From assembly GCF_057098645.1 (NCBI RefSeq), contig NZ_CM169472.1: a stretch of DNA of 64,000 bases. The stretch is one strand, 5' to 3'. A program made the position numbers. Positions 36,001 to 39,000 of the stretch are shown here, in pieces. How positions within the stretch are numbered: the first letter of the stretch is position 1; every line of letters starts with the position of its first letter.

Positions 36001-39000
36001 CCCGCTTGATGTTGATGAAATGGTTATCGCTGCCCGTCAGGTGGAGCGGGAAACGGGTAAACCTGTACGCATGATTATTCTGGATACGCTGGCGCGTTGC
36101 TTTGGTGGGAATGATGAAAATGATTCCCGTGATATGGGGGCGTTTATCCGTGGTTGTGACGAACTGAAACGACGCACAGGGGCCACGGTGCTGGTGGTTC
36201 ACCATTCCGGCAAGGATGAGACGAAAGGCGCGCGCGGTTCCAGTGCATTTCGTGCTTCGCTGGATGCTGAATACCGGATACGCAGGGAGGACGCAGGAAG
36301 CGAAGCGCTGGTTATCTCATGCACCAAAATGAAGGACGCGGAGGAACTCAAAGAAGCCGCATATGACTTACGCGTGGTGGAGCTTTTTACCGACGCTGAC
36401 GGTGAATTAATCACGTCGCTGGTGGTGGTGGATGATCCGCGCCCTCCTGTTGAACTGGAGCGCATCGAGGAGGCAGGGAACAAGACGGAAAACCATACCG
36501 CGCTATGGCAGTGCATCAGAACACGAACAGCACACGGGGAGGCGTGCACTATCGCCCTTCTCCGCGACGATATGAAAAAGCTGGGGTATGAGATGAAGCA
36601 CTTCCGGCGCTGGCTGTACAAGCTGGAAAATGATGGCGTAATCGTTATTGACGGTGATGACGTGCGCCCGCTGTAAAAAGTGGGGAGTAAAAGTGGGGAG
36701 AGCGGGGAATTTAACAAAATTGAAACATAATTACCCACTTTCCCACCTGTATATACCCAAAAAAGTGGGGAGTAAAAAATATATTGAAAAACATCACGTT
36801 AGAATCACAAAAAAAAGAGGTGGGGAGACGGTGGGTAATTTCAAAAAGTGGGGAGCAAAAGTGGGGAGTAGTGGGGAATGAACAGAAAAACCAGAGATAA
36901 GACAGCGCCAAAATATAAAGCGTTAGACATGACTGAGCACACCTTAAAGGTGGCAATCAGAACGATAGACCGCCACACGCGGGAAGGATACGCGAAGGAA
37001 CATCCCGACCTGATAAGCGCATTCATGACCACGGCGGCGGCAAACTTTGCCACGCTGACAGAACGGGAGATTGCCGAAGCGGAACAGGTAACAACCATCA
37101 ACGTTAAAACCGGAGAGGTGGAATTATGACGGCACAGATAGCCGCTTACGGGCGGCTGGTGGACGACCCGCAGGTAAAACAGACCAGCAAGGGCACACCG
37201 ATGACGCTGGCGCGTATGGCGGTATCTTTGCCATGCAGCCAGGCACAGGACGGACAGGCGACGTTATGGTTATCGGTCATCGCATTTGGCAAACAGGCCG
37301 ACTTCCTGGCTAAACATCAAAAAGGCGATGTTGCCAGCGTATCCGGCACGATGCAGGTCAGCCAGTGGACCGGACAGAACGGAGAAACGCGGCAGGGCTG
37401 GCAGGTTATCGCAGACAGCGTAATCAGTGCCCGCGCGGCACGTCCAGGCGGGAACAGACGCAAAACCACAGGCACACAGGGTAATCAGCCACCAGCGGGA
37501 GGCGATGACCCTTACGGTGATGATATTTCGTTCTGAGGGGGTGACGATGGTACATGACCGCATAGCGGAGGAACTGGAGGCGAAAGGCTTTTACCGGAGG
37601 GCGGCGGCGCGATGGGGTGAAGTCATGCAGCTGGTGGAGACAGACAAGGAACGGCATCATATCACGATGCGACGGCTGGAATGTTCCAGGAAGGCACAGA
37701 GGCCACCGGAGCCGCCGGATAATTACGGAGACCTGAAAAAGGCGGTCGATCGCACTTATGCCGAAATGGGTATGGATGGTGCTGGTGATGAAATATGGCG
37801 AAATTACCAGGACAGATAATCACACAGCCGGAGCAATCCGGCTTTTTGTCATGTTTTGTAAATTATTTGTTCGTGGTTGTTCCACGTTGTTCACTGAGTG
37901 GATCGGCATATTTTACCCGAACTGAATCATGATTATTCTCGCCCGTGGTGCCAGGACGCTGGGGCCATTTTCCCGCCTGTTAATGTGCTCGCCAATATTC
38001 ATTACCAGGCGGGAAAACGATCGGTGCGATTACTGATTTCCTTATGAAAAACGGTTGAGTGTTTGCCGCGTCCTGGAGTTCCTTACTTAACCCCAGGACT
38101 TTTTTTTATGCCGAGAATAATCGAATTACGCCAGCAGAAAACCGCCATTAAAAATCAGATGCGCGACATGCTGGAGAACGCGGAAAAAGAAAACCGCAGC
38201 CTTAACGATGCAGAGGGCGCAAAATTTGACGAATTACGCGCTAAAGCTGAATCCCTCGATAAAGACATTTCCCGCCTTGAAGCCATTGCAGACGAAGAGC
38301 GCAGCAAGCCAGGTAAAAGCAGTCAGACCACTGACCCCGCAGAACTCCGCAACTACATTCTGACAGGTGAAACCCGCGCATTAAGTACAGGCGTTCCCGC
38401 TGATGGTGGTTATACCGTTATCCCTGAACTGAACACCGAAATCATGCGAATGCTGGCGGATGAATCCACCATGCGCCGCATCTGTACCGTGAAGAAAATC
38501 AGCAGCAACGAGTTTAAGCAGCTTGTTTCCGCTGGCGGTGCGACCGTTAACCACGGTGAAGAGGGTAAGGCACGCGAACAGACCAGCACCCCGCAGATTA
38601 ACGAGGTGAGCATCAAGCTGTATCCGGTCTATGCGTACCCGCGCACCACACAGGAAATCGTGGATTTTTCCGATGTGGACATCCTTTCATGGCTGACGGG
38701 TGAGATTGGCGACACCTTCACGGAAACCGAAGAAAGCGATCTGGTTGTGGGCGACGGTGACAAAAAAGCAAAAGGTTTTTTATCCGTACCCCGTGCAGAG
38801 AAGAACGACAAAGAGCGTGATTTTGGTACGTTGCAGGTAATTAAACCTTCCGAATCTCTGGCGTGGACATCTGCGGACCCGCTGATCGACCTGAAATTTG
38901 CATTACGTAAAAAATACCGCAAAAACGCGGTCTGGGTGGTTAACTCCACGACGGCGGCAAAACTTCAGAAGGTGAAGAACGCGAACGGTGATTATATCTG

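What the first reader, a model, noticed from the sequence alone, without database searches (positions are those of the whole stretch)
36679..36877. AGTGGGGAG iteron array immediately downstream of the primase/helicase gene: candidate origin
At least five exact and two variant direct copies of AGTGGGGAG, each preceded by an A-run, plus inverted CCCAC-containing copies, lie between the rep-like gene and the next ORF. PICI-type elements typically place an iteron ori directly 3' of rep. The 77-codon track ORF over this region is just a translation of the repeats.
Basis: partly seen in the sequence, partly recalled or inferred. Interest (0 to 1): 0.5.

Follow-up and report, generated by a model that had tools for sequence, protein, structure and literature searches.

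The report
Replication origin of a phage satellite
The repeat cluster is almost certainly the replication origin of a capsid-forming phage satellite (cf-PICI), read by a DNA-binding domain at the end of the neighbouring helicase; this is an ordinary kind of origin, but relatives show a clean one-amino-acid/one-base recognition match.

Summary
Window 36675-36878 holds 11 sites of the type AAAGTGGGGAG: 5 exact 9-mers, 4 variants and 2 inverted copies. They surround a 27-35% GC centre, and only one other exact copy occurs in the 64 kb. The array lies between a RepA-family helicase gene (35276-36676, no primase domain found) and an 83-codon ORF plus ssb, inside a cf-PICI.

Relatives support the origin reading:
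- About 59 distinct relatives keep the same 200-nt architecture.
- All iteron copies change in concert, for example GTGGGG to GTGAGG.
- Where the helicase is replaced by a DUF927 or a P4-type initiator between the same flanking genes, unrelated iterons appear.
- The iteron allele is co-inherited with the last ~60 aa of Rep, a predicted winged helix.
- Residue 442, at the N-cap of the recognition helix, matches iteron base 4 in 46 of 46 backgrounds (His with G, Asn with A), with at least 9 independent switches.
- The 77-codon ORF is broken by stops in relatives, so it is not a gene.

Verdict: a Rep-bound iteron origin of the known PICI type, and a new member of that kind. Function has not been tested experimentally.

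The parts
35276..36676 (+). rep: a 466-aa initiator-helicase. It has a swappable N-terminal domain (~aa 1-122), a RecA-fold AAA_25/RepA helicase core (~aa 135-385) and a C-terminal winged helix (~aa 400-466).
   Evidence: Pfam AAA_25, E=7.8e-44. Match to the RSF1010 RepA helicase 1g8y. Foldseek matches to Rad51/RadA RecA folds. AF2 model. RefSeq names relatives 'helicase RepA family protein'.
36473..36673 (+). Part of rep that encodes the winged-helix domain (aa 400-466). The recognition helix is aa 443-452, and His442 at its N-cap is the predicted reader of iteron base 4.
   Evidence: AF2 domain model with pLDDT 88.6 and topology H-H-H-beta-beta. The top Foldseek matches are almost all winged-helix DNA binders (Fur, DtxR, ArsR, LexA, ORC), with prob 0.9-0.99 but weak E-values. 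Residue 442 is the only column with complete association to the iteron allele.
36675..36709 (+). Left iteron set, all direct: I1 36675-36687, I2 36688-36700 and the degenerate I3 36701-36709. I1 overlaps the rep stop codon.
   Evidence: These positions are conserved in 59 distinct relatives.
36731..36748 (-). Inverted iteron pair: I4' 36731-36741 (AAAGTGGGTAA on the - strand) and I5' 36740-36748 (AGGTGGGAA on the - strand). The pair forms an imperfect 19-nt inverted repeat with I7/I8.
   Evidence: (inverted repeat I1, 79% complementary).
36746..36755 (.). Conserved non-iteron motif CCTGTATATA, of unknown role.
   Evidence: It is conserved across iteron alleles in the alignment of relatives. 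It is not a consensus promoter.
36760..36772 (+). Central direct iteron I6 (AAAAAGTGGGGAG).
36773..36814 (.). AT-rich centre, the candidate DNA-unwinding element.
   Evidence: GC is 27% in the 60-nt window at 36760-36819. The 30-mer duplex stability is -32.7 kcal/mol against an element mean of -41.4 (sd 3.6). The sequence varies among relatives but stays A/T-rich.
36815..36878 (+). Right iteron set, all direct: I7 36815-36827, I8 36828-36838, I9 36843-36855, I10 36856-36868 and I11 36866-36878. The GGAG of I10 lies 9 nt before the ATG of the next ORF and probably doubles as its ribosome-binding site.
36878..37129 (+). 83-aa ORF of unknown function (phrog_1231), conserved immediately downstream of the origin. 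It is not the iteron reader.
   Evidence: The same gene, at 91-95% nt identity, sits beside unrelated iterons in L008 and L009.
37126..37536 (+). Single-strand DNA-binding protein encoded by the element.
   Evidence: Pfam SSB, E=1.7e-16. phrog_44.

Best explanation
Window 36675-36878 is the vegetative replication origin of a capsid-forming phage-inducible chromosomal island (cf-PICI).

The proposed mechanism is as follows. After induction, the rightward operon is transcribed and Rep is made. The C-terminal winged helix of Rep binds the 11 AAAGTGGGGAG-type iterons, and residue His442 at the start of the recognition helix reads the fourth base of the GTG[G]GG core. Rep oligomers assemble on the left set (with the inverted pair and central iteron) and on the right set. 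They melt the AT-rich centre (about 36773-36814). The RecA-fold helicase core then loads itself onto the opened strands. The island's own SSB coats the single strands, and host primase and polymerase complete the fork.

Shown computationally here: the site layout, its conservation, the concerted change of all copies, the exchange of rep and ori as one cassette, the co-inheritance of ori with the Rep C-terminal domain, the residue-442/base-4 match, and the winged-helix and RecA folds.

Inferred: actual binding, melting, self-loading, and the dependence on host primase.
For: 1. Clustering and layout.

2. Conserved architecture: the same 200-nt layout appears in 59 distinct relatives' sequences, with iteron columns conserved and spacers variable.

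3. Concerted evolution: all copies, including the inverted ones, read GTGGGG in the window and L001. They read GTGAGG in L004, L005 and many IMG/VR and Xenorhabdus loci, GTGGGC/A in L006 and L007, GTGCGGCA in Kosakonia/Enterobacter/Phytobacter loci, and GTGGGGGA in Serratia/Pectobacterium/Morganella loci.

4. Cassette swap: between identical DUF4222 and ORF83/ssb flanks, a DUF927 initiator is followed by TAACCCGCA iterons (about 11 copies). A P4-family primase is followed by CTGTCTACC/GGTAGATAG iterons.

5. Co-inheritance with the Rep C-terminus: L005 Rep is 100% identical to the window Rep up to about aa 410, then differs, and its iterons differ. L001 Rep differs in the N-terminal domain (52% identity) but has the same C-terminus and the same iterons.

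6. Residue-base match: residue 442 is His with GTGGG and Asn with GTGAG in 46 of 46 distinct backgrounds. At least 9 switches are needed on a tree of the masked domain. Mean counts per origin are 8.5-11 against no more than 0.6, and the reverse for the other allele. Residue 442 is the only column with normalised mutual information 1.0; the next best is 0.53.

7. Fold: the C-terminal domain is a confident winged helix and residue 442 sits at the N-cap of helix 3.

8. Negative checks: the region has no conserved ORF, no Rfam family and no DnaA box.

9. Precedent: PICI origins have the same position and layout, shown experimentally for SaPIs and for EcCICFT073 (PMC9371898, PMC6092414).
Against: - No experiment has been done: replication, binding and melting are all inferred.
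- The winged-helix coding segment lies within 250 bp of the iterons, so some covariation could reflect physical linkage. The uniqueness of column 442 and the concerted change of all copies argue against this, but they do not exclude it.
- A few origins are mixed: L130, L137 and L138 carry 3 GTGGG and 5 GTGAG with an Asn Rep.
- The AT-rich centre is not the least stable DNA in the island.
- Foldseek E-values for the 80-aa domain are weak (0.05 or higher).
- The full-length AF2 model is only moderate (pLDDT 73).
- No primase is encoded, so the dependence on host DnaG is an assumption.
Confidence: 0.85

Rival explanations
1. The iterons are Rep-binding sites used mainly for regulation rather than initiation. 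They could act as an operator controlling read-through or expression of ORF83-ssb and the packaging genes, or as copy-control 'handcuffing' sites. In that case the true origin lies elsewhere.
For: The array lies inside a co-directional transcription unit with no terminator. The last iterons overlap the ribosome-binding region and start codon of ORF83. Iterons in plasmids are known to serve also in autoregulation and handcuffing (established knowledge; review PMC4980987).
Against: No other iteron cluster or comparable repeat exists in the island. The layout of two sets around an AT-rich centre directly 3' of rep is that of proven PICI origins (PMC6092414, PMC9371898). No consensus promoter lies in the region. 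A regulatory role would be an addition to origin function, not a replacement for it.
Confidence: 0.08
2. The repeats are a packaging recognition site (pac/cos-like) for the island's own small terminase.
For: cf-PICIs carry their own TerS and TerL, and terminase recognition sites often contain short repeats (established knowledge).
Against: The repeat allele tracks the Rep winged helix, and it changes completely when the initiator type changes while the packaging genes' neighbours stay the same. The array is about 5.6 kb from terS (42447). Classical PICI relatives such as L004, which have no capsid genes nearby in the fetched stretch, carry the same array.
Confidence: 0.03
3. The region encodes the 77-aa protein (36648-36881) and the repeats are a repetitive coding sequence.
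For: An open frame with a TTG start spans the array.
Against: That frame carries 3-7 stop codons in GTGAGG-type relatives, because GTGAGG creates TGA in that frame. There is no Pfam or PHROG match. RefSeq annotates no gene there in any relative inspected. The frame overlaps the rep 3' end.
Confidence: 0.01

Closest known systems
PICI replication origins (SaPI1/SaPIbov1/SaPI5 ori; E. coli EcCICFT073 ori)
   Same: The origin lies immediately 3' of the initiator gene. It consists of short iterons (6-12 in SaPIs, 11 here) in two groups around an AT-rich centre, with some iterons on either side of the centre pointing in opposite directions. The iterons are read by a winged helix in the C-terminal domain of a helicase-initiator, and the origin is specific to its own Rep (PMC9371898 introduction; PMC6092414 Fig. 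2 legend and text).
   Different: The helicase core here is RecA-fold and RepA/DnaB-like (AAA_25). The characterised SaPI Reps are SF3 or MCM-like AAA+ (PMC9371898), and the E. coli PICI tested was a pri-rep type. No primase is fused or adjacent here. The iteron is longer (about 11 nt including the A-tract) than the penta- or hexanucleotides of SaPIs. The iteron sequence was not found in the searchable literature.
EcCIEDL933, the prototype capsid-forming PICI
   Same: The gene order matches: int, alpA-like regulator, small ORFs, DUF4222, rep, ORF83, ssb, then HK97-type capsid, protease, portal, head closure, adaptor, HNH, TerS and TerL, with no tail or lysis genes (criteria in 10.1101/2025.02.11.637232). 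O157:H7 genomes carry a rep-ori 93% identical to the window.
   Different: The cf-PICI papers held in the library do not describe the origin or its iterons. The O157-type allele examined (L005; the O157:H7 record H26 matches the window at the same 93.3% identity) has Asn442 and GTGAGG iterons rather than His442 and GTGGGG. I did not check the EDL933 genome itself.
Iteron plasmids (pPS10/RepA, R6K/pi, RK2/TrfA, F/RepE) and RSF1010
   Same: Direct repeats are bound by winged-helix domains next to an AT-rich unwinding element. The helicase core is homologous to the RSF1010 RepA helicase.
   Different: In those plasmids the iteron-binding initiator and the helicase are separate proteins (RepC and RepA in RSF1010; Rep plus host DnaB elsewhere), and most need DnaA boxes. 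Here one polypeptide carries both functions and no DnaA box is present.
Satellite phage P4 alpha protein with ori/crr
   Same: It is a satellite replicon in which a multidomain initiator-helicase binds short repeats through a C-terminal DNA-binding domain. A P4-family primase with its own iterons occupies the same slot in related islands (L009).
   Different: P4 alpha is a primase-SF3 helicase and uses two separated repeat regions (ori and crr). There is no sequence similarity between the window's winged helix and the L009 protein.

Membership tests
PICI-type rep-ori replicon | The origin lies immediately downstream of the replication initiator gene. | tested here: met
   The array starts inside the rep stop codon (36675) and ends at the next ATG (36878).
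PICI-type rep-ori replicon | Two sets of iterons flank an AT-rich region, with iterons of opposite orientation on the two sides. | tested here: met
   The left set plus inverted pair, and the right set, surround the 27% GC centre. The inverted pair faces I7/I8.
PICI-type rep-ori replicon | The initiator is a helicase with a C-terminal winged-helix domain that recognises the iterons. | tested here: met
   The helicase core is supported, and the winged helix. Recognition is supported only by covariation, not by a binding assay.
PICI-type rep-ori replicon | The Rep-ori segment drives autonomous replication, and deleting ori abolishes it. | not testable with these tools
   This needs the plasmid-maintenance assay used for EcCICFT073 (PMC6092414).
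PICI-type rep-ori replicon | Specificity between cognate Rep and ori. | tested here: met
   The iteron type changes with the initiator type and with the winged-helix allele, in 46 of 46 backgrounds. This is comparative evidence only.
Capsid-forming PICI (cf-PICI) | [quoted passage not shown] | tested here: met
   int 31265-32515; alpA-like 32880-33068; rep; capsid 38063-39265; protease 39305-39877; portal 39879-41090; head closure 41045-41425; adaptor 41422-41718; HNH 41718-42158; TerS 42447-42803; TerL 42787-44448. No tail or lysis ORF was identified up to about 46 kb, but the small ORFs at 44.4-46 kb were not searched.
Capsid-forming PICI (cf-PICI) | Induced by a helper phage, and packaged into its own small capsids using helper tails. 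| not testable with these tools
   This is experimental only.
SF3 self-loading Rep helicases of SaPIs | An AAA+ superfamily-3 ATPase core. | tested here: not met
   The core matches Pfam AAA_25 and the RSF1010 RepA helicase, and its fold matches Rad51/RadA RecA-type ATPases. The origin therefore works like a SaPI ori, but Rep is not a member of that helicase family.
Primase-helicase (pri-rep fusion) initiators | A recognisable primase domain (Toprim, or AEP/prim-pol). | tested here: not met
   Pfam finds nothing in aa 1-135 even at E<=10. PHROG primase-helicase matches cover only the helicase core, except phrog_864, which matches the N-terminal domain. That N-terminal domain is an alpha/beta module of unknown function.

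The most novel reading that the evidence does not exclude
The Rep winged helix and its iterons may form a naturally evolved recognition code that can be switched by a single residue: His442 with G, Asn with A, and the RKSF and KKF variants with C or an extra G at the same core position. The code has flipped many times and creates separate replication-specificity groups among co-resident satellites. The initiator would also be a self-loading RecA-fold (SF4-like) helicase, a class not yet characterised among satellite replicons. That would imply a loading polarity and mechanism different from the SF3 SaPI Reps.
Probability: 0.35. Interest if true: 0.55.

Novelty: new member of a known kind. Interest (0 to 1): 0.36.

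Why it matters
The finding locates the origin of a widespread group of E. coli and enterobacterial phage satellites. A related rep-ori segment is present in about 590 of 5,426 complete E. coli genomes. It also names the protein domain, and the single residue, that probably reads the origin.

This gives an immediately testable specificity swap: H442N together with a G-to-A change in the iterons. It offers a rational way to build compatible or incompatible satellite replicons. It also provides a handle on how satellites that share one cell avoid cross-activating each other's origins. The biology itself, an iteron origin 3' of rep, is already established for PICIs.

Tried and rejected
- **Phage database:** blastn of the region found nothing.
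- **Rfam:** only sub-threshold chance matches.
- **Promoters and terminators:** the consensus scan found no promoter, and no + strand terminator in the array.
- **DnaA boxes:** none within or near the array.
- **Pfam on the isolated domains:** no meaningful hit for the N- or C-terminal domains.
- **NCBIfam:** only weak RadA-like matches, far below the cut-offs.
- **L003:** chosen as a possible Rep with a different C-terminus, it turned out to be a frameshifted, truncated pseudogene with no origin, so it was not informative.
- **Literature:** searching for the iteron strings returned only unrelated papers. The two cf-PICI preprints do not mention an origin.
- **Full-length Foldseek search:** informative only for the ATPase core, so the winged helix needed a separate domain model.
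- **Other proteins as the iteron reader:** I considered ORF83, SSB and the DUF4222 protein. All were rejected because the same alleles sit beside unrelated iterons.

Full report
**1. The observation**

The sequence between the rep stop codon (TAA, 36674-36676) and the ATG of the next ORF (36878) is a dense array of one motif.
- Exact AGTGGGGAG occurs at 36679, 36692, 36764, 36847 and 36860.
- One-mismatch copies occur at 36819 and 36870.
- Weaker direct copies lie at 36701 and 36829.
- Two inverted copies lie at 36731-36741 and 36740-36748.

Most direct copies follow an A-run, so the full unit is about 11-13 nt (AAAAAGTGGGGAG).

The only other exact copy in the 64 kb is at 35847 inside rep. 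About 0.5 copies are expected by chance, and there it encodes the conserved QWGG motif. With a weight matrix built from the copies, every site above 17 bits in the window lies within 36675-36868.

GC drops to 27-35% in the middle of the array. The segment 36770-36800 is about 2.4 sd less stable than the island average.

**2. Context**

The array sits in a roughly 13-15 kb island inserted next to roxA. The island carries:
- an integrase (31265-32515);
- an AlpA-like excisionase/regulator (32880-33068);
- small ORFs and a DUF4222 gene;
- rep (35276-36676);
- the array, then an 83-aa ORF and ssb;
- HK97-type capsid, protease, portal, head-closure, adaptor, HNH, TerS and TerL genes, with no tail or lysis genes identified.

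This is the gene set that defines capsid-forming PICIs (10.1101/2022.09.08.507074; criteria in 10.1101/2025.02.11.637232).

The array itself (with 76 nt of rep and 72 nt of ORF83) matches 589 of 5,426 complete E. coli genomes. RefSeq annotates no gene across the array in any relative inspected.

Rep is not a primase/helicase. The evidence is:
- Pfam finds only AAA_25.
- The only solved relative by sequence is the RSF1010 RepA helicase.
- The fold of the core matches Rad51/RadA RecA-type ATPases.
- The N-terminal 135 aa hit no Pfam family.

**3. Not a gene, not an RNA**
- The 77-codon frame (36648-36881) is open only because AAAGTGGGGAG has no stop in that frame. In relatives whose repeat is GTGAGG the frame contains 3-7 stops. 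It has no family match.
- Rfam gives only sub-threshold noise.
- No consensus promoter or + strand terminator lies in the array.
- No DnaA box lies in the array.

**4. Comparative evidence that it is the Rep-bound origin**

*(a) Conserved architecture.* In 59 distinct relatives' sequences, the 200-nt region aligns colinearly. The iteron positions are conserved and the spacers are variable.

*(b) Concerted change.* All copies in one origin, inverted ones included, carry the same core:

| Core | Where found |
|---|---|
| GTGGGG | window, L001 |
| GTGAGG | L004, L005, many IMG/VR and Xenorhabdus loci |
| GTGGGC/A | L006, L007 |
| AAGTGCGGCAT | Kosakonia, Enterobacter, Phytobacter |
| AAGTGGGGGA | Serratia, Pectobacterium, Morganella |

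Drift cannot change 7-11 sites in the same way. A shared reader can.

*(c) Cassette exchange.* Between the same flanking genes (DUF4222 upstream, ORF83 and ssb downstream), other E. coli islands carry a different initiator. A DUF927 initiator is followed by about 11 TAACCCGCA repeats. A P4-family primase is followed by CTGTCTACC/GGTAGATAG repeats. The repeat therefore belongs to the initiator and not to the neighbours. This also excludes ORF83, SSB and DUF4222 as the readers.

*(d) Co-inheritance with the Rep C-terminus.* L005 Rep is 100% identical to the window protein up to about aa 410 and then diverges, and its iterons differ. L001 Rep has a 52%-identical N-terminal domain but an identical C-terminus and identical iterons.

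- It is His when the core is GTGGG and Asn when the core is GTGAG.
- Mean counts per origin are 8.5-11 against no more than 0.6, and the reverse for the other allele.
- The match holds in 46 of 46 distinct protein backgrounds and needs at least 9 switches on a tree of the masked domain.
- Near-isogenic pairs exist, such as L123/L130 and L132/L138, which differ at only one other residue.
- Residue 442 is the only variable column with complete association. Its normalised mutual information is 1.0; the next best is 0.53, or 0.37 within the E. coli-type set.

Simple hitch-hiking of the adjacent DNA therefore does not explain the match.

*(f) Fold.* AlphaFold models give a confident winged helix for aa 400-466. 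The full-length model has pLDDT 85-94 there and the domain model has pLDDT 88.6. The topology is H1 405-419, H2 426-435, H3 443-452 and a beta hairpin at 456-465. The Foldseek neighbours are almost all winged-helix DNA binders (Fur, DtxR, ArsR, LexA, ORC), although E-values are weak for so small a domain. Residue 442 is the N-cap of the recognition helix, a usual base-contacting position. His with G and Asn with A fit common side-chain/base preferences (general knowledge).

**5. Mechanism**

Rep binds the iterons through its winged helix. Oligomers form on the left group (I1-I3, the inverted pair I4'/I5' and I6) and on the right group (I7-I11). The AT-rich 36773-36814 segment between them melts, and the RecA-fold helicase loads itself. 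The island's SSB stabilises the single strands, and host primase and polymerase do the rest.

The inverted pair and I7/I8 form an imperfect inverted repeat around the centre. This gives the opposite-orientation sites on either side that are described for SaPI origins (PMC9371898).

Binding, melting, self-loading and the use of host primase are inferences. I put 0.85 on the origin reading. The rivals are a mainly regulatory Rep operator (0.08), a packaging site (0.03) and a coding region (0.01).

**6. Comparison and novelty**

Position, layout and logic are those of PICI origins, which were proven for SaPIs and for EcCICFT073 (PMC6092414, PMC9371898).

The differences are:
- The helicase core is RepA/RecA-type rather than SF3 or MCM.
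- No primase is present.
- The repeat unit is longer.
- Neither this iteron sequence nor an origin for cf-PICIs appears in the searchable literature. Fig. 2a of PMC6092414 lists iterons of several E. coli PICIs, but I could not read the figure.

I class it as a new member of a known kind. The residue-442/base-4 match is the one result a specialist might find useful, because it is a directly testable specificity switch.

**7. Caveats**
- Everything here is computational.
- The covariation test is not fully corrected for recombination.
- Some origins are mixed (L130, L137, L138).
- The conserved CCTGTATATA motif inside the origin is unexplained.

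Noticed in passing
window 35276-35641 (Rep aa 1-122); L008:504-880; L009:925-1300: The N-terminal ~122 aa of Rep is a separate, swappable module. It is 63-64% identical to the N-termini of otherwise unrelated initiators in the same slot of other E. coli islands (a DUF927 protein and a P4-family primase). Within the RepA type, the window and L001 share only 52% identity in this domain but 96-100% elsewhere. It is predicted as an alpha/beta fold and hits no Pfam family. It may be an adaptor or regulatory domain linked to the upstream DUF4222 gene.
   Followed up: partly
L008:2637-3007 and L009:2680-2966: Alternative rep-ori cassettes occupy the same slot. A DUF927 initiator comes with about 11 TAACCCGCA/TGCGGGTTA iterons. 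A P4-family primase comes with CTGTCTACC/GGTAGATAG iterons. Both lie between the same DUF4222 and ORF83/ssb flanks.
   Followed up: partly
L132 (IMG/VR), region after the rep stop: This locus has a natural deletion of the origin centre. The left iteron set is fused directly to the right set and the ORF83 start, as expected from recombination between the two direct-repeat sets. This copy probably cannot replicate.
   Followed up: no
L130, L137, L138 (IMG/VR): These origins are mixed. An Asn442 Rep is paired with 5-6 GTGAG and 2-3 GTGGG iterons, mostly at the right end. They look like recent recombinants or intermediates in a specificity switch.
   Followed up: no
window 36746-36755: The non-iteron motif CCTGTATATA, between the inverted pair and the central iteron, is conserved across all iteron alleles. 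It is neither a consensus promoter nor a DnaA box, and its role is unknown.
   Followed up: partly
window 36856-36880: The last iterons overlap the translation start of ORF83. The GGAG of I10 lies 9 nt upstream of the ATG, and I11 ends in the first base (A) of the ATG. The origin repeats therefore double as the ribosome-binding region.
   Followed up: no
window 35847-35855: The single out-of-array exact copy of AGTGGGGAG lies in the rep helicase core. It encodes the conserved Q-W-G-G motif and is most likely a coding coincidence.
   Followed up: yes
window 33126-34295: This 389-aa ORF matches a phage transcriptional-repressor family (phrog_6196) only in its last ~90 aa. The first 300 aa have no match. 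In other islands this region carries different small genes.
   Followed up: no
window 44450-46700: After TerL there is about 1.5 kb of very AT-rich DNA with only small ORFs. It holds the least stable duplex segments of the island, at 45424-45487. Two SMR/QacE-like genes follow (46018-46699). In relative L001 the island is followed by phoQ. The right end of the island and its att site were not mapped.
   Followed up: no
L003:2501-3829: A related island next to smrA has a frameshifted, C-terminally truncated rep and no iteron array. It appears to be a decayed copy.
   Followed up: no
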